Sequence record: MT833283.1 | Length of the DNA stretch: 64,000 nt | Origin: Escherichia coli phage vB_EcoS_Ace | Direction: 5' to 3' (one strand) | Part shown: positions 26,958-34,970 of the stretch, one piece after another | Layout: each line of letters begins with the position of its first letter | How positions within the stretch are numbered: the first letter of the stretch is position 1 | The notes under the pieces: model-generated | What the model saw: the letters and a program-made list of their open reading frames with translations, nothing else | Database searches by the model: none | What the model was told of the DNA's origin: nothing | Position numbers and translations under genes: made by a program

Positions 26958-27447
26958 TTTCAAATTGCCCGTATATGCTTTACGGGCATTTGTATCAATT
27001 GAGCAGGAAGGTGATTATTCCGTAATTACAACAAGATATAATAAATATGTGCTAGATAACAGGGAGTTGCCTGGCACATTCTCTCAACGTAGGTTAGCCT
27101 TATTTGAGAAGCGGAAAGAATTACCTTATAAGCTCTATCCTATTCGTGGTAGAATATCAATGTTGTCCCAATTAGTTGGGTCAAAGCGTAGCCAGTTCAT
27201 AGATTCTGATGGAAATCTCATTAACTGGAAGAAAACTACGTTCTACGATGTTATCACGTCTAAAGTTCTGCATTCTGCAAGAATTTATAATGGAAAGTAT
27301 CAATGCTATGTGGCTAAAGTCCCATATCCATTCGTGCTATCCTATGTTCCAGCTTATATAAGCTATATTCTGGTAAATAATAGCCCTGTTATTTATCAAG
27401 TCCATCAAGAGGAGCCTGAAATTCCTAGACTTAGAATAAAATTATGA
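26950..27447 (+). CDS. Hypothetical protein (165 aa)
   Basis: ORF between the polymerase and helicase genes, overlapping both. Confidence 0.4.
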   Translation: MLDFKLPVYALRAFVSIEQEGDYSVITTRYNKYVLDNRELPGTFSQRRLALFEKRKELPYKLYPIRGRISMLSQLVGSKRSQFIDSDGNLINWKKTTFYDVITSKVLHSARIYNGKYQCYVAKVPYPFVLSYVPAYISYILVNNSPVIYQVHQEEPEIPRLRIKL

Positions 27448-28796
27448 AGGTTGTTATATCTAATAAAGCCTATTTCAAGCCCGATGATGAACTCTGGGAT
27501 TATTGTAGTAAACAAACCACTTACCACATCGAGACAATGACTAGTAAATACCCTATTATGTATAAGAATAGTGGTGTTGTTGCTAAAGAGATTAAGTGGA
27601 TTCCCATTACGCGTCTGGATTTGCTAGATGCTAAGGGAGTAAAATACGAATTAGTTGATAAACGCACGTTAGCTCCGGTAAAAATACCAGAACCTCAGTT
27701 CAAGCTGCGTGAAGAAGATCAACTCCCTATATATGAAGAGTGTGATGATACTTGTATTATCAATGGTAAGCCCGGATTTGGTAAAACTATCCTAGCTTTA
27801 GCTCTTGCATATAAGTTTGGCCAGAAAACTCTGGTAATCTGCACCAACACATCCATACGGGAAATGTGGGCTGCAGAAGTTCGTAAATGGTTTGGATTCG
27901 AGCCTGGTATTATAGGTTCTGGAAAGTATAATATTGATCCACCAATCGTGGTCAGTAATATACAAACCGTGAATAAACATGCGAATAATCTTTCTAAGGT
28001 GTTCGGTACTGTTATAGTTGATGAAGTTCACCACTGTGTGGCTACAACTTTCACTAATTTCTTAGAGATCTCGTGTGCTCGCTACAAGATTGGTTTATCG
28101 GGTACGTTAAAACGTAAAGATGGCCTACAAGTTATGTTCAAAGATTTCTTTGGATATAAGATCTTTAGTCCGCCTGTCAATAACACTGTTCCACCCACAA
28201 TCCATAGGTACTCCGTGCCTGTTGAGTTATCAGGAAACCAGAACGTACCGTGGGCATTACGTGCTAACGATGTGTATAACCATCCTGAATATCGAGAGAC
28301 TATTATAAATCTAGCTCATTTATATGTGTCTATGGGGCATAAGGTTCTCTTTGTAAGTGATAGAACAGAACTAATTCAAACAATACTAGAAGCTCTCGCA
28401 CAACGTGGTGTTACAACCTATGAGATTATAGGTGCAACTCCTTTGGATGATCGATTGAGAATCCAGAAAGATGTAGCGGAGGGCGGACCTTGTGTACTTG
28501 CAGCAGCTCAGAGTATCTTCTCAGAAGGTATTTCTCTTAACGAGCTATCTTGTTTAATAATGGGGAGTCTCATTAATAATGAATCTCTCATAGAACAGTT
28601 AGCAGGCCGCGTTCAACGTATTGTTGACGGAAAGCTAGATCCGATTGTTGTAGATTTAATTATGAAAGGAGGTACTGGTTTAAGACAGGCTTCTGGACGT
28701 ATGGCCGTGTATCGCAATAATGCGTGGAAAACTATTACTATGACTCCGGAGAAAGCAGTACAATTAGCTAAAATTGCATTTGGCAACTGCTCATAA
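27444..28796 (+). CDS. SF2 DNA helicase (T5 D10-like)
   Basis: 450 aa; Walker A GKPGFGKT, DEVH box (VIVDEVHH), later helicase motifs. Confidence 0.75.
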   Translation: MKVVISNKAYFKPDDELWDYCSKQTTYHIETMTSKYPIMYKNSGVVAKEIKWIPITRLDLLDAKGVKYELVDKRTLAPVKIPEPQFKLREEDQLPIYEECDDTCIINGKPGFGKTILALALAYKFGQKTLVICTNTSIREMWAAEVRKWFGFEPGIIGSGKYNIDPPIVVSNIQTVNKHANNLSKVFGTVIVDEVHHCVATTFTNFLEISCARYKIGLSGTLKRKDGLQVMFKDFFGYKIFSPPVNNTVPPTIHRYSVPVELSGNQNVPWALRANDVYNHPEYRETIINLAHLYVSMGHKVLFVSDRTELIQTILEALAQRGVTTYEIIGATPLDDRLRIQKDVAEGGPCVLAAAQSIFSEGISLNELSCLIMGSLINNESLIEQLAGRVQRIVDGKLDPIVVDLIMKGGTGLRQASGRMAVYRNNAWKTITMTPEKAVQLAKIAFGNCS

Positions 28797-28808
28797 TTAT
28801 TGTATAAT
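28780..28808 (+). promoter_or_regulatory. Early promoter (TTGGCA-N17-TATAAT) with ATAAATTTGAGAGAGAAAG leader
   Basis: Read directly; followed by a short hairpin and no long ORF before the next promoter. Confidence 0.45.
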
Positions 28809-28879
28809 ATACACATAAATTTGAGAGAGAAAGTTTCGGATTGATAAGAAAGTCCGAAGCAGAAAAATAAAAATTGTAC

Positions 28880-28909
28880 TTGTCAAATCCTCCCGATTTA
28901 ATGTATAAT
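28880..28909 (+). promoter_or_regulatory. Early promoter (TTGTCA..TATAAT) with ATAAATTGATGAGAGAC leader
   Basis: Read directly; precedes the ATG at 28937. Confidence 0.5.
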
Positions 28910-28936
28910 ATATACATAAATTGATGAGAGACAAAA

Positions 28937-29299
28937 ATGAAATTCTTTGATTACGAGAGAATTTACCTCTTAGCTAGAGGAAACTCCGACCTGATTGTCA
29001 AGCTATTTAATAGAATGCTTGCAGAGCCTGATGCTCACCAGTTACTGGTCGGTTCTTCATTCATCTTGAATGAATCAACTATTGTTGATAACCCTTACAA
29101 ATTGTCTAATAGACAACTGGCAGAATATCTAGGAATTCTAAGTCTACGAAATTATGCCGAATATAAGTTTACAAACGATCCGAGTTTGGACATGCAATAT
29201 GTCCCCATATGGATACCACGTTCTGTAATCGACACTAACCCACTAATTGCAATCAATAAATCGAAGATAATCTTTAAAGAGGAAATAAAATATGGCTAA
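28937..29299 (+). CDS. Hypothetical protein (120 aa)
   Basis: ORF immediately after the tandem promoters. Confidence 0.45.
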   Translation: MKFFDYERIYLLARGNSDLIVKLFNRMLAEPDAHQLLVGSSFILNESTIVDNPYKLSNRQLAEYLGILSLRNYAEYKFTNDPSLDMQYVPIWIPRSVIDTNPLIAINKSKIIFKEEIKYG

Positions 29300-30065
29300 G
29301 TCTTGGGGCGAAACTACTGGCGGTTCTAACGATAAAATCGACTTCCTGAAATTCAACAACGGTGTAACTCGTGTTCGTATCGTTTCTGGTGTTCTTCCAC
29401 GTTATGTCTACTGGCTGACTAACAAAGATGGTAATGCAGCTCCGTTTGAGTGCCTGCGTTTCAACCGTACTAAAGAGAGCTTCGTTCGCGGTAAAGCTGA
29501 CCCGATTCACGAAATGGGCTTCTTCGAGAAAGAGCTGGACAAAGATGGTAATCGTGTTCCGCTGAAACCGAAGAAAAACTACATCGCTTTCGTTATCGAC
29601 CGTTCTGATAACAAACTGAAAGTTATGGAAGTTAAAGCTACGATCCTGAAAGGCATCCAGTCTATCATGAAGCAGCTGAAACTGTCCGACCCGTTCGATA
29701 TCGATATTTCTATCGAGAAGAAAGGTAAAGGCTTCGATACTGAGTACGATGTACAGCAGATCGCAGCAATGCAGTTCCAGATGGCTCTGAAAGATCCTAC
29801 TAGCGCAGAAGCTAAACTGCACGCCGCAGATGCCGATATCCTCGGTGAAGCTATGTGTGATGATACTGGTGAGTTCATCAAGTTTGAAAAAGTTCCTTCT
29901 CTGGAAGAAACCTACCCGGTTCCGTCCTACGAAGAGCAGAAAGAAGCTATTCTCGCCTTCATGGAAGGTCGTGAGAAGCAAGACGGCGGTGACGCTAAGT
30001 CTGGTGGTGATGCTGGTTCTCAGAAAGGCATCGACGCTGAAGCTGCTAGCGATCTGGACGACTAA
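29292..30065 (+). CDS. Putative ssDNA-binding protein (abundant, acidic C-terminal tail)
   Basis: 257 aa; host-like codon usage; RVRIVSGVLP..APFECL core and acidic tail ending DAEAASDLDD, reminiscent of gp32-type SSBs; by-eye only. Confidence 0.4.
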   Translation: MAKSWGETTGGSNDKIDFLKFNNGVTRVRIVSGVLPRYVYWLTNKDGNAAPFECLRFNRTKESFVRGKADPIHEMGFFEKELDKDGNRVPLKPKKNYIAFVIDRSDNKLKVMEVKATILKGIQSIMKQLKLSDPFDIDISIEKKGKGFDTEYDVQQIAAMQFQMALKDPTSAEAKLHAADADILGEAMCDDTGEFIKFEKVPSLEETYPVPSYEEQKEAILAFMEGREKQDGGDAKSGGDAGSQKGIDAEAASDLDD

Positions 30066-30075
30066 TAAACCAAGT

Positions 30076-30099
30076 GGAGCTACGGCTCCCTTTCTTTTT
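30076..30099 (+). terminator. Rho-independent terminator
   Basis: GGAGC-TACG-GCTCC hairpin followed by CTTTCTTTTT. Confidence 0.6.
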
Positions 30100-30104
30100 A
30101 ACTT

Positions 30105-31082
30105 ATGAGAATACTATTTAGTGCTGATCATCATATCAAATTAGGACAAGATAAAGTTCCAAAGGAATGGCAGAAGCGTCGCTTCCTGATGCTAGGAGAA
30201 CGGTTAAATGACATATTCCATAATCATAACTGTGATCTGCATATTGCTGGTGGTGATATTCTTGATGTTGCCGACCCATCGTCGGAAGAAATAGAACTTC
30301 TTGAACAGTTCATGTCAAGACTTGACCATTCAGGCAAGATCTTCACTGGGAACCATGAAATGTTAACTAAAACTATTTCATGTCTGTATCATTATGCAGG
30401 AGTTATTAATAAAGTAACAAACGGAAATTGGGAAGTCATTACTAAACCATATCGTTCTCCTGAATTTGATATTATCCCTTATGATGAAATCCACAAACCA
30501 AAGTGGAAACCATCTGAGTCAAAACTATGTTTCACGCATGTTCGTGGTGAAATCCCTCCACATGTAAAACCAGAGATTGATCTAACGAGGTATAACTGTT
30601 ATGACACTGTAATTGCTGGCGATTTACATTCTTATACTAATAGTCAAACTGTTGGTTCTACTAGACTTCTTTATCCAGGATCTCCATTAACTACATCGTT
30701 CCATAGAGAACGAACAAAAGGTACAAATGGTTGTTTTATCATTGATACCGACACATTAAAAGTAGAATGGATTGAACTTGGTGACTTACCACAACTGATT
30801 CGTAAAACAATCGGAGTTGGTGAGGAAATGGAGCCTAGTGACTATGACCGTGTAATTTATGAAGTCACTGGTGACGTCGTTCAGTTAAAGTCTATTAAAG
30901 ATTCTGATCTCTTAGATAAAAAGATTAACCATCGAGTTACTAAAGATGCTAAGTTAAATCTTGTTGATCTTGATATGTTAGGCGAGCTTGAGCTTTACTT
31001 CCGTGAAGTTGAAAAGCTGCCTCAAGACGACATTGATAGAATCTTGGCTAGAGCTGCTAAATATGTCAAAGATTATAATTAA
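30105..31082 (+). CDS. SbcD/Mre11-like nuclease (calcineurin-like phosphoesterase)
   Basis: 325 aa; DHH near the N-terminus, GGDILD, GNHE and later His motifs. Confidence 0.75.
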   Translation: MRILFSADHHIKLGQDKVPKEWQKRRFLMLGERLNDIFHNHNCDLHIAGGDILDVADPSSEEIELLEQFMSRLDHSGKIFTGNHEMLTKTISCLYHYAGVINKVTNGNWEVITKPYRSPEFDIIPYDEIHKPKWKPSESKLCFTHVRGEIPPHVKPEIDLTRYNCYDTVIAGDLHSYTNSQTVGSTRLLYPGSPLTTSFHRERTKGTNGCFIIDTDTLKVEWIELGDLPQLIRKTIGVGEEMEPSDYDRVIYEVTGDVVQLKSIKDSDLLDKKINHRVTKDAKLNLVDLDMLGELELYFREVEKLPQDDIDRILARAAKYVKDYN

Positions 31083-32901
31083 GACACTAAAATTCAGCAA
31101 CGTTATGTCTTACGGTAAGGATATCGTAATTCATTTCGATAAGAATCCAGTTACTCAGTTAATCGGAGGAAACGGTCTAGGGAAGTCCACTATTGCTACT
31201 GTTATTGAGGAATTGTTTTATAACAAGAACTCACGTGGTATCAAGAAGGACGCCCTATTCTCTTGGGGTTCTCCGAAGAAAGAGTATGATATGCATGCTT
31301 ACTTCTCGAAAGATGAAGATGAGTATGAATTGCATAAAGTAGTTAAATCAACTGCTAAGGTTACACTGATTAAGAATGGAGAAGATATCAGTGGACACAC
31401 AGCAACTCAAACGTACAAGATGATTGAAGAGATTATGGGTGGTGACTTCCAAACATTCACTAAACTAATCTATCAATCTGTTGGTTCCAATCTAGACTTC
31501 CTCAAAGCAACTGATGCAACACGTAAAGCTTTTCTTGTTAATCTGTTCAATCAGGAACAGTATAAAGAGATGTCAGAAACTATTAAGGCTGATCGTAAAG
31601 AAGTGGCAAGTACGTTAAGTAACTTGCAAGGCCAGATGGCCGTAATTACGAAGATCCTCAATGGAAAAGGTAATCTCGGAAGTTTACAGGAGCCAGTTGA
31701 AGTTCCAGAATTTGATGAAGAACCGTTAGCACAAGAACTTACTGAATCGAAAATTAAGGCGGCATTAGCCAAGTCACAAGAGGCTAATATTACTAAACTC
31801 CGTAATTTGGACAAAGCTGTACAAGTTGCCGAACAATCTTTCGAGCCTTTCAAAAATTTCCCTGCGCCCACTGACCAATCTGAAGAGATCTCAAGTGTTA
31901 CGCGTGACTTAACGATTGTTACCTCACGTGCGGGAGAAGTCAAGAAACGTTATCAGAAGTTTAAGCAAGAGGCTTCAAATACTGAATGTCCTACTTGTGG
32001 CACTCACCTTGATACAACTGCTGCTCAAAAAGCAATGGATATGGCTAGAACAGAATATGATCCTCTGTTTAAAGAGAAACAATCTCTTGAAGCTACATTG
32101 GAGCAGTTGAAGAAAGAACAAGTCGAGTACACTGCGTATACTAGAGCTAAGGATGCTTTGGATAAGGCAATAGCAGCTAGGGGCGAGTTCAAAAATTCAA
32201 TGAGTGATGCTTCTTTTGAAGAACTCAATGTGCAAATCCTACAGGTGCAAATCCGACAATTAGAACAGGAAATCGCAGATGGACGTTCTAAAGTTGCAAT
32301 TGCCAAAGAGCATAATGCAAATGTCGAGTTAGCCAATGCAAAGTATAAAGTGAAACTAGAACAGATTGAGAAAGCTGAGGCAGAAATGTCTGAGATAACG
32401 TCCAAACTGGATGGAGTATCAGAAGCTGTCGCTGATCTTGATATTCTGATAGCTGCATTGAAAAATCTGGTAGGATATAAACTAGAGCATAGTGTGAAAG
32501 TATTTGAGGAATTGATTAATAAATATCTTTCTATTATGACTGGTGGTAAGTTCGCACTTGGATTTGAGCTTGATGAAACTAAATTACAAGTAGTAATCTT
32601 CAATGATGGAAACCGTACCAGTATGGAGAACTGCTCTACTGGTCAGCAGAGTAGAATTAACCTAGCAACTCTGTTGGCAATTCGAATGCTGTTAACATCT
32701 ATCAGCAAAGTTAATATTAATCTTCTATTCCTTGACGAAGTTATTAGCTTTATTGATACGAAAGGACTTGATACTCTTGTTGAACTATTAAATGAGGAAG
32801 ATAGTCTGAACTCTATCATTGTTTCTCATGGGCATACGCATCCATTAGCCCATAAGATTACTGTCAAAAAAGATGCAGAAGGATTTTCCTACTTAGAATA
32901 A
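31063..32901 (+). CDS. SbcC/Rad50-like ATPase
   Basis: N-terminal Walker A GGNGLGKST, long coiled-coil middle with CPTCG zinc hook, C-terminal signature and D-loop (LLFLDEV); start set at the ATG at 31063. Confidence 0.75.
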   Translation: MSKIIIKTLKFSNVMSYGKDIVIHFDKNPVTQLIGGNGLGKSTIATVIEELFYNKNSRGIKKDALFSWGSPKKEYDMHAYFSKDEDEYELHKVVKSTAKVTLIKNGEDISGHTATQTYKMIEEIMGGDFQTFTKLIYQSVGSNLDFLKATDATRKAFLVNLFNQEQYKEMSETIKADRKEVASTLSNLQGQMAVITKILNGKGNLGSLQEPVEVPEFDEEPLAQELTESKIKAALAKSQEANITKLRNLDKAVQVAEQSFEPFKNFPAPTDQSEEISSVTRDLTIVTSRAGEVKKRYQKFKQEASNTECPTCGTHLDTTAAQKAMDMARTEYDPLFKEKQSLEATLEQLKKEQVEYTAYTRAKDALDKAIAARGEFKNSMSDASFEELNVQILQVQIRQLEQEIADGRSKVAIAKEHNANVELANAKYKVKLEQIEKAEAEMSEITSKLDGVSEAVADLDILIAALKNLVGYKLEHSVKVFEELINKYLSIMTGGKFALGFELDETKLQVVIFNDGNRTSMENCSTGQQSRINLATLLAIRMLLTSISKVNINLLFLDEVISFIDTKGLDTLVELLNEEDSLNSIIVSHGHTHPLAHKITVKKDAEGFSYLE

Positions 32902-32904
32902 AAC

Positions 32905-33387
32905 ATGGCCGTAGATAGTAGAGAGAAAGGTAAACGTGGTGAATATCAGGTAAGAGATATACTGCGTGAACGTACAGGTCTTGAGTGGGAACGTGTTCCA
33001 GGCTCTGGTGCTTTTGGCCAGAGCCATGGACTGAAGGGTGACATCTACCTTCCACCACAAAGCGGACACATTAGTAAATACTGCTTCGAAGTTAAGTGGT
33101 ATAAAGATGATAACATATCAAGTAATTTATTTAACGTTGGTGAATCCACTCTAGAGAAGTGGTGGCAGCAGTGTTCCCGTGAAGGTGAACAGATGAACTC
33201 CAAACCAGCCTTAATATTCAAGAAAGACAGAGGACAGTGGTTAATTGCTTTGGATAGCTCAGACCCGATGGTTGACAACTTAATGAGTCGCACCCATATG
33301 GTGTTAAATAAGAAAGACATGGAAATCGTAATCGGGTTATTCGAACCGTGGTTACATCACGCATCTGTTGAGGACTTAATTAAATAA
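32905..33387 (+). CDS. Putative Holliday-junction resolvase, Hjc-like PD-(D/E)XK nuclease
   Basis: 160 aa; GKRGEYQVRDILRERTG..VPGSGA..GDIY..FEVK reproduces the archaeal Hjc layout (Glu, GSG, Asp, E-x-K). Confidence 0.55.
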   Translation: MAVDSREKGKRGEYQVRDILRERTGLEWERVPGSGAFGQSHGLKGDIYLPPQSGHISKYCFEVKWYKDDNISSNLFNVGESTLEKWWQQCSREGEQMNSKPALIFKKDRGQWLIALDSSDPMVDNLMSRTHMVLNKKDMEIVIGLFEPWLHHASVEDLIK

Positions 33388-34262
33388 TGAGTAAATCCTG
33401 GGGAAAATTTATTGAAGAGGAAGAAGCTGAGCTGGCTTCTCGTCGCAACCTAATGATTGTTGATGGAACTAACTTGGGCTTCCGCTTCAAACATAATAAT
33501 AGTAAGAAACCATTCGCATCAAGTTATGTTTCTACAATTCAATCTCTCGCAAAATCCTATTCAGCTAGAACCACAATCGTTCTCGGTGATAAAGGAAAGT
33601 CTGTATTCCGTTTAGAGCATCTTCCTGATTACAAAGGGAACCGTGATGAAAAGTATGCTCAACGTACAGAAGAAGAGAAAGCACTAGATGAACAGTTCTT
33701 CGAGTATCTTCGTGATGCTTTCGAGTTGTGTGAAACCACATTCCCAACTTTCACTATTCGTGGTGTAGAAGCAGACGATATGGCAGCTTATATTGTTAAG
33801 CTCATTGGTCATTTATATGATCACGTTTGGCTGATCTCTACTGATGGTGACTGGGATACTCTATTAACTGATCGAGTTTCTCGCTTCTCCTTCACCACAC
33901 GTCGTGAGTACCATCTTCGTGATATGTATGAACACCATAACGTTGATGATGTTGACCAATTTATCTCTCTGAAAGCAATTATGGGAGATCTCGGTGATAA
34001 CATCCGTGGTGTTGAGGGCATTGGTGCAAAACGTGGTTATAACATTATCCGTGAATTTGGTAATGTTCTGGATATTATTGATCAACTCCCTCTGCCTGGA
34101 AAACAGAAGTATATACAGAATCTGAACGCATCGGAGGAGTTGCTTTTCCGAAACTTGATTCTGGTTGATTTGCCGACCTATTGTGTAGATGCTATTGCTG
34201 CTGTGGGTCAAGACGTATTAGATAAGTTTACGAAAGATATTTTGGAGATCGCAGGACAATGA
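33387..34262 (+). CDS. Flap endonuclease / 5'-3' exonuclease (T5 D15-like)
   Basis: 291 aa (the length recalled for T5 D15); N-terminal LMIVDGTNLGFR, acidic metal-site clusters, HhH-like C-terminal part. Confidence 0.85.
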   Translation: MSKSWGKFIEEEEAELASRRNLMIVDGTNLGFRFKHNNSKKPFASSYVSTIQSLAKSYSARTTIVLGDKGKSVFRLEHLPDYKGNRDEKYAQRTEEEKALDEQFFEYLRDAFELCETTFPTFTIRGVEADDMAAYIVKLIGHLYDHVWLISTDGDWDTLLTDRVSRFSFTTRREYHLRDMYEHHNVDDVDQFISLKAIMGDLGDNIRGVEGIGAKRGYNIIREFGNVLDIIDQLPLPGKQKYIQNLNASEELLFRNLILVDLPTYCVDAIAAVGQDVLDKFTKDILEIAGQ

Positions 34263-34705
34263 TTAAAATTAAACTAACTCATCCAGATTGCATGCCGAAG
34301 ATTGGTTCTGATGATGCCGCAGGTATGGATCTGCGTGCATTCTTTGGTACTAACCTTGCAGCAGATTTACGTGCTATTGCACCAGGCAAATCCCTTATGA
34401 TCGACACCGGTGTCGCGGTGGAAATTCCGCGAGGTTGGTTTGGTCTGGTAGTTCCTCGCAGCTCTTTAGGTAAGCGTAAACTAATGATCGCAAATACCGC
34501 AGGAGTGATCGACTCAGACTACCGTGGTACTATTAAGATGAACCTGTTTAACTACGGTTCTGAAATGCAAACTCTGGAGAATTTCGAGAGACTTTGTCAG
34601 CTAGTAGTACTACCACACTACTCAACTCATCATTTTGAAATCGTTGACGAACTAGAGGAGACTGATCGTGGAGAAGGCGGCTTTGGAAGCTCAGGAAGTA
34701 AATAA
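34259..34705 (+). CDS. dut: dUTP diphosphatase
   Basis: 148 aa; dUTPase motifs AAGMDLRA, PRSS, GVIDSDYRG and C-terminal RGEGGFGSSG. Confidence 0.85.
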   Translation: MIKIKLTHPDCMPKIGSDDAAGMDLRAFFGTNLAADLRAIAPGKSLMIDTGVAVEIPRGWFGLVVPRSSLGKRKLMIANTAGVIDSDYRGTIKMNLFNYGSEMQTLENFERLCQLVVLPHYSTHHFEIVDELEETDRGEGGFGSSGSK

Positions 34706-34931: not shown

Positions 34932-34936
34932 TAATA

Positions 34937-34970
34937 AACCCCAGTGGACAATCCACTGGGGTTTTCTTTT
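34937..34970. terminator. Bidirectional terminator at the convergence of early and late gene blocks
   Basis: CCCCAGTGG-ACAAT-CCACTGGGG hairpin with an A-run upstream and T-run downstream. Confidence 0.65.

What the first reader, a model, noticed from the sequence alone, without database searches (positions are those of the whole stretch)
30105..34262. Compact recombination/repair block: SbcCD-like nuclease, Hjc-like resolvase and FEN
The SbcD-like and SbcC-like genes overlap, and are followed directly by a 160-aa protein with the archaeal Hjc catalytic layout (E…GSG…D…E-V-K) and by the flap endonuclease. An archaeal-type resolvase in a coliphage is notable and may resolve branched replication intermediates before packaging.
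Basis: inference. Interest (0 to 1): 0.4.

Follow-up and report, generated by a model that had tools for sequence, protein, structure and literature searches.

The report
Phage T5 recombination genes D12–D15
This is the already-sequenced early recombination/repair gene block of a T5-like coliphage, and its 160-aa protein (identical to T5 D14) does have the fold and active site of an archaeal Hjc-type junction-cutting enzyme, though nobody has tested its activity.

Summary
The window is a T5-like phage: 99.8% DNA identity to Escherichia phage IrmaTschudi and 89.6% to T5. The four genes are T5 D12 (SbcD/Mre11-like), D13 (SbcC/Rad50-like), D14 and D15 (the crystallised T5 flap endonuclease, about 97% identical).

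The 160-aa protein is 100% identical to T5 D14. All 25 nucleotide differences from T5 in this gene are synonymous. It belongs to Pfam PF24608 (PDDEXK_15, "phage putative PDDEXK endonuclease").

The Hjc-like reading therefore holds, but D14 is a sister family, not a member of Pfam Hjc, and not RusA-like as many records say. It is not rare: more than 1,400 phage genomes carry a homologue, and an archaeal-like Hjc from a Thermus phage already has a structure and shown activity. Junction resolution by D14 remains an inference. Low novelty and low interest, apart from T5 still lacking a demonstrated debranching enzyme.

The parts
28880..28909 (+). Sigma-70-like promoter (TTGTCA-18-TATAAT, 11/12). 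It lies at the position of T5 putative early promoter T5P38 and probably starts the operon that contains the block. A second 11/12 site lies at 28780-28808.
   Evidence: consensus match plus positional homology to the T5 annotation; not shown to be functional
27444..28796 (+). Context: D10-type SF2 helicase (450 aa; ResIII + Helicase_C). T5 D10 is a demonstrated branch-migration protein.
   Evidence: PMC5180179
29292..30065 (+). Context: D11, a single-stranded DNA-binding protein (257 aa; phrog_1607 E 2.3e-103). It is 84% identical to T5 D11.
30105..31082 (+). D12: SbcD/Mre11-like metallophosphoesterase nuclease subunit (325 aa). Motifs: DHH at 8, GDILD at 50, GNHE at 82, GDLH at 172. 96.0% identical to T5 D12.
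31063..32901 (+). D13: SbcC/Rad50-like ATPase subunit (612 aa from ATG 31063). Motifs: Walker A GGNGLGKS at 35, zinc hook CPTC at 309, signature STGQ at 525, Walker B LLFLDE at 554. It overlaps D12 by 20 nt and is 96.4% identical to T5 D13.
32905..33387 (+). D14: Hjc-like PD-(D/E)XK nuclease (160 aa; Pfam PF24608 PDDEXK_15). Putative active site E13, D46, E62, K64, with a phosphate-binding R30 and G33-S34-G35 loop. Residues about 1-117 form the conserved core; about 118-160 form a lineage-variable C-terminal extension. 100% identical to T5 D14.
33387..34262 (+). D15: T5 flap endonuclease / 5'-3' exonuclease (291 aa). About 97% identical to PDB 1ut5/1exn/1xo1.
34259..34705 (+). Adjacent dUTPase (148 aa). 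It overlaps the FEN stop by 4 nt and is in the same transcription unit.
34936..34964 (.). Bidirectional intrinsic terminator (13-bp stem, T-runs on both strands). It closes the + strand early unit and the converging tail-fibre gene, and matches a terminator annotated in T5.

Best explanation
The region is the early recombination/replication-repair operon segment of a T5-like phage. It carries D12/D13 (an Mre11-Rad50/SbcCD-type end-processing nuclease, the counterpart of T4 gp47/gp46), D14, D15 (flap endonuclease) and dUTPase. These are transcribed together downstream of the D10 branch-migration helicase and the D11 SSB.

D14 is a small Mg2+-dependent PD-(D/E)XK nuclease whose core and active site are those of archaeal Hjc. 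E13 lies on helix 1, D46 at the start of strand 2, E62-x-K64 on strand 3, and a flexible R30...G33-S34-G35 loop is the phosphate-binding element.

The most likely mechanism is inferred, not shown. D14 would act as a homodimer that binds four-way and other branched DNA and makes paired nicks. This would resolve recombination and replication branches in T5's concatemeric DNA so that genomes can be packaged. That is the role played by endonuclease VII in T4 and endonuclease I in T7. D10 could supply branch migration.

**Shown here:** gene identities, fold, conserved catalytic residues, purifying selection, conserved synteny.
**Inferred:** dimerisation, substrate, and role in packaging.
For: **Identity of the block**
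- 99.8% DNA identity to phage IrmaTschudi and 89.6% to T5.
- Same gene order as annotated in both.

**D14 family and conserved residues**
- PF24608 PDDEXK_15, E 1.8e-47.
- Invariant E13, R30, G33-S34-G35, D46, E62, K64 in 40 homologues.

**D14 structure**
- The Foldseek top 15 are all Afu/Pfu Hjc (E 7.5e-4 to 3e-2).

**D14 sequence link to Hjc**
- hhalign of the D14 family against PDB-verified Hjc/Hje sequences gives probability 88.8%, E 2.4e-6. All catalytic residues align, and K106 aligns to Pfu K81.
- The only PDB sequence-level hit is the phage Hjc 7bgs (E 0.19 to 1.1).

**Selection**
- There are 25 nucleotide differences from T5 in D14 and all are synonymous. The neighbouring genes have 7 to 40 nonsynonymous codons each.

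**Synteny**
- The order pol-helicase-SSB-SbcD-SbcC-D14-FEN-dUTPase is kept in a metagenomic phage whose D14 is only 48% identical.
- In Staphylococcus Kayvirus the homologue lies about 2.5 kb downstream of an SbcD/SbcC-like pair in the replication module.

**Supporting literature**
- T5 D10 is a demonstrated branch-migration enzyme (PMC5180179).
- A phage Hjc-like enzyme cleaves X-shaped DNA (PMC8805305).
Against: - No biochemical or genetic data on D14 were found.
- The protein does not hit Pfam Hjc PF01870. Only 5 of 40 family members do, weakly, at E 0.0074 or worse.
- The Hjc dimer-interface phenylalanines (Pfu F68, F72) align to Q89 and M97 in D14, so the dimer mode is not predictable.
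- D14 has an extra 45-residue C-terminal extension that Hjc lacks.
- PD-(D/E)XK cores support many substrate specificities.
Confidence: 0.62

Rival explanations
1. D14 is a PD-(D/E)XK nuclease with a substrate other than Holliday junctions. For example, it could be an accessory endonuclease that works with D12/D13 and D15 on hairpins, flaps, forks or nicked duplexes, or it could contribute to nucleic-acid degradation.
For: - It is tightly coupled to SbcCD-like and FEN genes, with 3-nt and 1-nt junctions.
- It has a family-specific C-terminal extension.
Against: - The best structural and profile matches are consistently junction resolvases.
- Phage resolvases are typically promiscuous on branched DNA anyway (abstract of PMC3864405, seen), so this rival overlaps with the main explanation.
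Confidence: 0.25
2. D14 is the site-specific nickase that makes the characteristic single-strand interruptions of T5 DNA. One such site lies inside the neighbouring D13 gene.
For: - The T5 'major nick 4' site maps to window 31861-31868 on the minus strand and fits the consensus R/GCGCRGG (PMC3517423).
- D14 is a nuclease of unknown specificity.
Against: - The nicking genes sciA and sciB were mapped to the late region (PMC3517423), whereas D14 is in the early D region.
- D14 homologues occur in Herelleviridae, Vibrio phages and an archaeal virus, which to my knowledge are not reported to carry T5-type nicks. This rests on my own recollection and was not checked.
- Hjc-type enzymes recognise structure rather than sequence (family knowledge).
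Confidence: 0.03
3. D14 is a RusA-like Holliday junction resolvase, as PHROG 244 and many RefSeq records name it.
For: phrog_244 'RusA-like Holliday junction resolvase' E 1.9e-37; RefSeq labels.
Against: - No Pfam RusA hit appeared at E up to 10 for any of 40 members.
- The fold and motifs are PD-(D/E)XK.
- The label may be right about function but is wrong about family.
Confidence: 0.01
4. D14 is a selfish homing or restriction-like endonuclease that happens to be inserted between D13 and D15.
For: T5-like genomes carry many homing endonucleases. IrmaTschudi has one nearby that this window lacks. Restriction enzymes share the fold.
Against: - It is present at the same position in 434 of 450 related phage records and in a 48%-identical relative.
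- It is 100% conserved against T5, with only synonymous changes.
- It has no DNA-recognition domain, being a 160-aa core plus a short extension.
Confidence: 0.03

Closest known systems
Bacteriophage T5 genes D12 (exo1), D13 (exo2), D14, D15 (exo5/FEN), dut (AY587007)
   Same: Same genes in the same order. Protein identities are 96.0, 96.4, 100, 97.5 and 95.3%.
   Different: The DNA is only 89.6% identical. The window's overall closest relative over this block is the Epseptimavirus IrmaTschudi (99.8%). Annotated start codons for D13 and D15 differ between records.
Archaeal Holliday junction resolvases Hjc/Hje (Pfam PF01870; PDB 1gef, 1hh1, 2wcw, 1ob8)
   Same: PD-(D/E)XK core. The catalytic E...D...E-x-K, the R...G-S phosphate loop and a conserved strand-4 lysine all align. 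These are the best structural neighbours.
   Different: - Only 15-20% identity.
- Below the PF01870 threshold.
- The dimer-interface phenylalanines are not conserved.
- The loop between the G-S motif and the catalytic Asp is longer.
- There is an extra C-terminal extension of about 45 residues.
- It occurs in bacterial viruses.
[quoted passage not shown]
   Different: The sequence match is marginal (E 0.19) and confined to residues 4-48. The motif is GD-EVK in D14 rather than SD-EVK. The host and phage lineage differ. Hjc_15-6 has shown X-DNA cleavage; D14 has none shown.
T4 endonuclease VII (gp49) and T7 endonuclease I (gp3)
   Same: The proposed biological role: debranching of replicative and recombinational concatemers before packaging. 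This rests on established knowledge of T4 and T7.
   Different: The folds are unrelated (T4 endo VII) or divergent (T7 endo I), as described in PMC8805305. Neither appeared among the fold-search hits.
T4 gp47/gp46 and E. coli SbcCD / Mre11-Rad50
   Same: D12 has the metallophosphoesterase motifs. D13 has ABC-ATPase motifs split by a coiled coil with a CxxC zinc hook.
   Different: Scores are far below the NCBIfam cut-offs for bacterial SbcC/SbcD. D13 is short (612 aa), which from memory resembles T4 gp46 more than the 1,048-aa E. coli SbcC.

Membership tests
Archaeal-type Hjc resolvases (Pfam PF01870 / cd00523) | [quoted passage not shown] | tested here: met
Archaeal-type Hjc resolvases (Pfam PF01870 / cd00523) | Motif I Glu, motif II Asp, motif III E-x-K (Pfu E9, D33, E46, K48) | tested here: met
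   E13, D46, E62 and K64 are invariant in 40 homologues and are aligned to these residues by hhalign. The motif definitions come from PMC8805305, which cites Aravind 2000 and Daiyasu 2000.
Archaeal-type Hjc resolvases (Pfam PF01870 / cd00523) | Sequence match to the family model above its curated threshold | tested here: not met
   The window protein has no PF01870 hit at E up to 10. Five of 40 family members hit weakly, the best at E 0.0074. The profile-profile probability of 88.8% indicates a related but separate family.
Archaeal-type Hjc resolvases (Pfam PF01870 / cd00523) | Homodimer with two active sites spaced to nick two strands of a four-way junction | not testable with these tools
   Only monomer prediction is available. 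The Pfu dimer-interface residues F68 and F72 align to Q89 and M97.
Archaeal-type Hjc resolvases (Pfam PF01870 / cd00523) | Mg2+-dependent, structure-specific cleavage of Holliday junctions | not testable with these tools
   This needs biochemistry. No published assay of D14 was found.
Pfam PF24608 PDDEXK_15 (phage putative PDDEXK endonuclease) | Full-length match above the gathering score | tested here: met
   161.7 bits against a cut-off of 27, covering residues 4-160 and model positions 1-164 of 164. All 40 aligned homologues and nine of the ten distant profile hits sampled also match; the tenth, P0151, is a repetitive artefact.
RusA Holliday junction resolvases (Pfam PF05866) | RusA fold and sequence family | tested here: not met
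SbcCD / Mre11-Rad50 nuclease complexes | Nuclease subunit with calcineurin-type phosphoesterase motifs. ATPase subunit with Walker A, Walker B and signature motifs split by a coiled coil bearing a CxxC zinc hook. Adjacent genes. | tested here: met
   - Motifs located.
- Metallophos E 5.5e-6; AAA_15, AAA_23 and SbcC_Walker_B hits.
- phrog_100 and phrog_77.
- Weak TIGR00618/TIGR00619 and Rad50 hits, below the equivalog cut-offs.
- The coiled coil itself was not computed.
FEN / 5'-3' exonuclease family (T5 D15) | N-terminal PIN-like nuclease domain plus H3TH domain; identity to the characterised enzyme | tested here: met
   PF02739 and PF01367 hits. E 2e-193 and about 97% identity to PDB 1ut5/1exn over all 291 residues.

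The most novel reading that the evidence does not exclude
D14 is the so far unidentified debranching enzyme of T5-like phages, and by homology of Herelleviridae. On this reading it is an Hjc-like dimer that works with the D10 branch-migration helicase as a phage-encoded migrate-and-cut pair, analogous to RuvAB-RuvC or archaeal Hjm-Hjc. It would be required for packaging of concatemeric DNA. Its complete amino-acid conservation between phages that differ at 10% of nucleotides would reflect that essential role.
Probability: 0.5. Interest if true: 0.35.

Novelty: already known. Interest (0 to 1): 0.2.

Why it matters
T5 is a classic model phage, and its D15 FEN and D10 helicase are well studied. 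No paper found here assigns it a junction-resolving or debranching enzyme.

D14 is the obvious candidate. The evidence here gives a concrete mutagenesis target (E13, D46, E62, K64). It also corrects the widespread 'RusA-like' family label.

Beyond that the block is ordinary. It consists of known genes of a known phage. The family is already in Pfam and already annotated as a resolvase in many genomes, and there is a structural precedent for archaeal-like Hjc enzymes in bacteriophages.

Tried and rejected
**Searches that gave little or nothing**
- Direct sequence search of D14 against PDB gave only a marginal hit to the Thermus phage Hjc (E 1.1; with the family profile E 0.19). It is not sufficient alone.
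- NCBIfam has no model for D14.
- Four literature searches for D14 function in T5-like phages found no functional study.
- One search was swamped by unrelated 'D12-D15' usages and was useless.

**Hypotheses rejected**
- RusA membership was rejected on fold and profile evidence.
- The 'T5 nickase' idea was checked and set aside, because sciA and sciB map to the late region (PMC3517423). The consensus RGCGCRGG is also not enriched in the window (3 matches against 1.9 expected).

**Artefact**
- A 1,605-aa hit with 28 matched stretches in the profile search (P0151) matches many unrelated Pfam families with no discrete domain. It was dismissed as a repetitive or low-complexity artefact.

**Not attempted**
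- Dimer modelling, because the tool folds single chains only.
- A deeper Hjc profile from a second large database search, because three independent lines already agreed.
Full report
**What is there.**

ORF listing of 28-37 kb shows a run of tightly packed + strand genes:

| Coordinates | Gene |
|---|---|
| 27444-28796 | helicase |
| 28937-29299 | 120-aa ORF |
| 29292-30065 | 257-aa protein |
| 30105-31082 | 325-aa protein (D12) |
| 30988/31063-32901 | SbcC-like ORF (D13) |
| 32905-33387 | 160-aa protein (D14) |
| 33387-34262 | 291-aa protein (D15) |
| 34259-34705 | dUTPase |

Megablast of 30105-34262 against phage genomes finds 450 records. 434 of them cover at least 80% of the query. The best is Escherichia phage IrmaTschudi at 99.8% (Demerecviridae, Epseptimavirus). 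The annotations under the match read 'recombination nuclease subunit 1/2, endonuclease, flap endonuclease, dUTP pyrophosphatase'.

Against T5 itself the block is 89.6% identical in DNA. The proteins correspond to D12/exo1 (96.0%), D13/exo2 (96.4%), D14 (100%), D15/exo5 (97.5%) and dut (95.3%). The finding is therefore the D12-D15 segment of a T5-like coliphage.

**Checking the observation.**

- Junctions. The SbcD stop is at 31080-31082. The SbcC-like frame is open from 30988, with candidate starts at GTG 31003 (used in IrmaTschudi), TTG 31033 (used in T5) and ATG 31063.
- Start of D13. The N-terminus of a homologue from a metagenomic phage contig (its D14 is 48% identical to this one), and the start positions of the SMC_N, AAA_23 and SbcC profiles, all line up with ATG 31063. 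I take that as the start, giving a 20-nt overlap. The genes overlap under any choice.
- Other junctions. D14 starts 3 nt after the D13 stop. Its TAA shares a base with the FEN ATG. The FEN TGA overlaps the dUTPase ATG.

**The flanking enzymes.**

- D12 has the calcineurin-type phosphoesterase motifs (DHH, GDILD, GNHE, GDLH). It matches Pfam Metallophos, phrog_100 'SbcD-like' (E 1.2e-64) and, weakly, TIGR00619.
- D13 has a Walker A motif, a central CPTC zinc-hook motif, an STGQ signature and an LLFLDE Walker B motif. It matches phrog_77 'SbcC-like' (E 1.1e-133) plus weak SbcC and Rad50 models.
- Both score far below the cut-offs for the bacterial equivalogs. They form a phage lineage of the Mre11-Rad50/SbcCD type rather than orthologues of E. 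coli SbcCD.
- The 291-aa protein is the T5 D15 flap endonuclease, with E 2e-193 and about 97% identity over its full length to PDB 1ut5/1exn.

**The 160-aa protein.**

- Family. It is a full-length member of Pfam PF24608, PDDEXK_15 'phage putative PDDEXK endonuclease' (E 1.8e-47), and of phrog_244, which carries the name 'RusA-like Holliday junction resolvase'.
- Conservation. A search of 5.8 billion proteins returned 146 homologues, all PF24608. In an alignment of 40 of them (45-82% identity) the invariant residues include E13, R30, G33, S34, G35, D46, E62 and K64.
- Model. An AlphaFold2 model built on that alignment is confident (pLDDT 88.1, pTM 0.85). Its order of elements is that of the restriction-endonuclease fold:
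  - E13 lies at the start of helix 12-24.
  - D46 lies at the start of a short strand.
  - E62 and K64 lie in strand 59-66, which is followed by helix 82-96 and strand 100-107.
  - The 31-40 loop has low confidence. The equivalent loop is disordered in the crystal of the Thermus phage Hjc (PMC8805305).
- Foldseek independently gives 15 Hjc chains as its top 15 hits (E 7.5e-4 to 3e-2, target TM about 0.5).
- Sequence-level test. I verified a recalled Pyrococcus Hjc sequence against PDB (100% match to 1gef). I took the Afu Hjc, Sso Hje and Sso Hjc segments from the printed alignments and aligned the four. I then compared that profile with the D14 family. hhalign gives 88.8% probability and E 2.4e-6 over 93 columns, with this register (Pfu numbering):

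| D14 | Pfu Hjc |
|---|---|
| E13 | E9 |
| R30 | R25 |
| G33-S34 | G28-S29 |
| D46 | D33 |
| E62 / K64 | E46 / K48 |
| K106 | K81 |

.
- Limit of the match. The window protein does not hit Pfam Hjc (PF01870) at all. Only 5 of 40 relatives do, weakly.
- Conclusion. D14 has the Hjc fold and active site but belongs to a separate, related family. The 'RusA-like' name used by PHROGs and RefSeq is wrong as a family assignment: there is no RusA profile hit and no RusA structure among the neighbours.

**Is it a real, working gene?**

Compared with T5, the D14 gene has 25 nucleotide differences, and all 25 are synonymous. D12, D13, D15, dut and D11 carry 13, 22, 7, 7 and 40 nonsynonymous codons. D14 is the most constrained protein in the block.

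The gene order polymerase-helicase-SSB-SbcD-SbcC-D14-FEN-dUTPase is preserved on a metagenomic contig whose D14 is only 48% identical.

**How widespread is it?**

- A profile search of 1.84 billion cluster representatives finds 1,639 proteins at E up to 1e-3. Nine of the ten sampled are PF24608; the tenth, P0151, is a repetitive artefact.
- tblastn finds the protein in 1,458 phage records. These are not only T5-like phages of Escherichia, Salmonella, Klebsiella, Vibrio and others, but also Herelleviridae of Staphylococcus, Bacillus and Enterococcus, and one Methanoculleus virus.
- In a Staphylococcus Kayvirus the homologue sits in the replication module about 2.5 kb downstream of a metallophosphoesterase / SbcC-like pair.
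- BFVD structural neighbours include phage proteins named Holliday junction resolvase and 'SPO1 gene 91'.

An Hjc-like nuclease in a coliphage is thus common, and databases already record it.

**Operon context.**

Two 11/12 sigma-70-like promoters lie at 28780-28808 and 28880-28909. The latter is at the position of T5's annotated early promoter T5P38. A 13-bp-stem bidirectional terminator lies at 34936-34964. The block therefore looks like one early transcription unit with translational coupling.

**Mechanism.**

- Established elsewhere:
  - T5 D10, encoded just upstream, is a branch-migration helicase (PMC5180179).
  - T5 D15 is a flap endonuclease with solved structures.
  - A phage Hjc-like protein cleaves X-shaped DNA (PMC8805305).
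  - T4 and T7 need junction-cleaving enzymes to debranch DNA before packaging (textbook knowledge of endonuclease VII and endonuclease I).
- Inferred:
  - D12/D13 process DNA ends for recombination-dependent replication.
  - D15 removes flaps and primers.
  - D14, as a dimer, cuts four-way and other branched intermediates.
- Confidence. I put about 0.9 on 'Hjc-like PD-(D/E)XK nuclease' and about 0.6 on 'junction-resolving/debranching enzyme'.

The main rival is a different branched or hairpin substrate in concert with SbcCD/FEN. The T5 nickase idea is unlikely because sciA and sciB map to the late region (PMC3517423).

**Novelty.**

The sequence is T5 D14 itself, and the block is textbook T5. 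The PD-(D/E)XK assignment is in Pfam. A resolvase label is already widely attached, and there is a crystallised precedent for archaeal-like Hjc in a bacteriophage.

What remains open is experimental. I found no paper that tests D14. The D10 paper does not mention any resolvase.

Interest is low (0.2).

Noticed in passing
window 31861-31868 (- strand), inside the SbcC-like gene: The sequence GGCGCAGG is positionally homologous to the T5 feature 'major single-stranded nick 4, 64.7%' (T5 78651-78657). It fits the published T5 nick consensus R/GCGCRGG. The consensus occurs 3 times in the window against 1.9 expected, so only the positional homology is meaningful.
   Followed up: partly
window 30076-30089 (+), between the SSB stop (30065) and the SbcD start (30105): A short hairpin GGAGC-TACG-GCTCC is followed by CTTTCTTTTT. 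This is a weak terminator or attenuator-like element just upstream of D12 and is not annotated in T5.
   Followed up: no
window 28797-28936 vs L001 2137-2667: The closest relative, IrmaTschudi, carries a 531-bp 'putative homing endonuclease' gene between the helicase and the next ORF. This window, like T5, lacks it. This looks like presence/absence of a mobile endonuclease among near-identical phages.
   Followed up: partly
window 31003 / 31033 / 31063; window 33387 vs 33432: Public records disagree on start codons. For D13 the starts are GTG 31003 in IrmaTschudi and TTG 31033 in T5, while homologue alignment favours ATG 31063. T5 AY587007 annotates D15 starting 45 nt downstream of the ATG that gives the 291-aa protein crystallised as 1ut5.
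   Followed up: yes
window 32905-33387 vs neighbours: D14 is 100% identical in protein to T5 despite 25 synonymous nucleotide changes. The adjacent SSB (D11, 29292-30065) is the most divergent protein of the block, at 84% identity with 40 nonsynonymous codons.
   Followed up: yes
L005 3974-4459 (Methanoculleus virus L4768, NC_074642): A weak D14 homologue (32% identity over residues 6-120, E 7e-4) in an archaeal virus is annotated 'diguanylate cyclase/phosphodiesterase'. This is probably a mis-annotation of a PD-(D/E)XK nuclease.
   Followed up: no
PHROG 244 / RefSeq records such as NC_048010, NC_048818: The name 'RusA-like Holliday junction resolvase' is propagated to this family, although the fold is PD-(D/E)XK (Hjc-like) and not RusA.
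   Followed up: yes
protein P0151 (profile search): A 1,605-aa metagenomic protein matches the D14 profile in 28 stretches. It also matches many unrelated Pfam families with no discrete domains, so it looks like a repetitive or low-complexity artefact.
   Followed up: partly
window 32229-32258 (by offset from T5 79019-79048): T5 annotates two short 'direct repeat D' copies (11 and 12) inside D13 at this position. They were not examined in the window.
   Followed up: no
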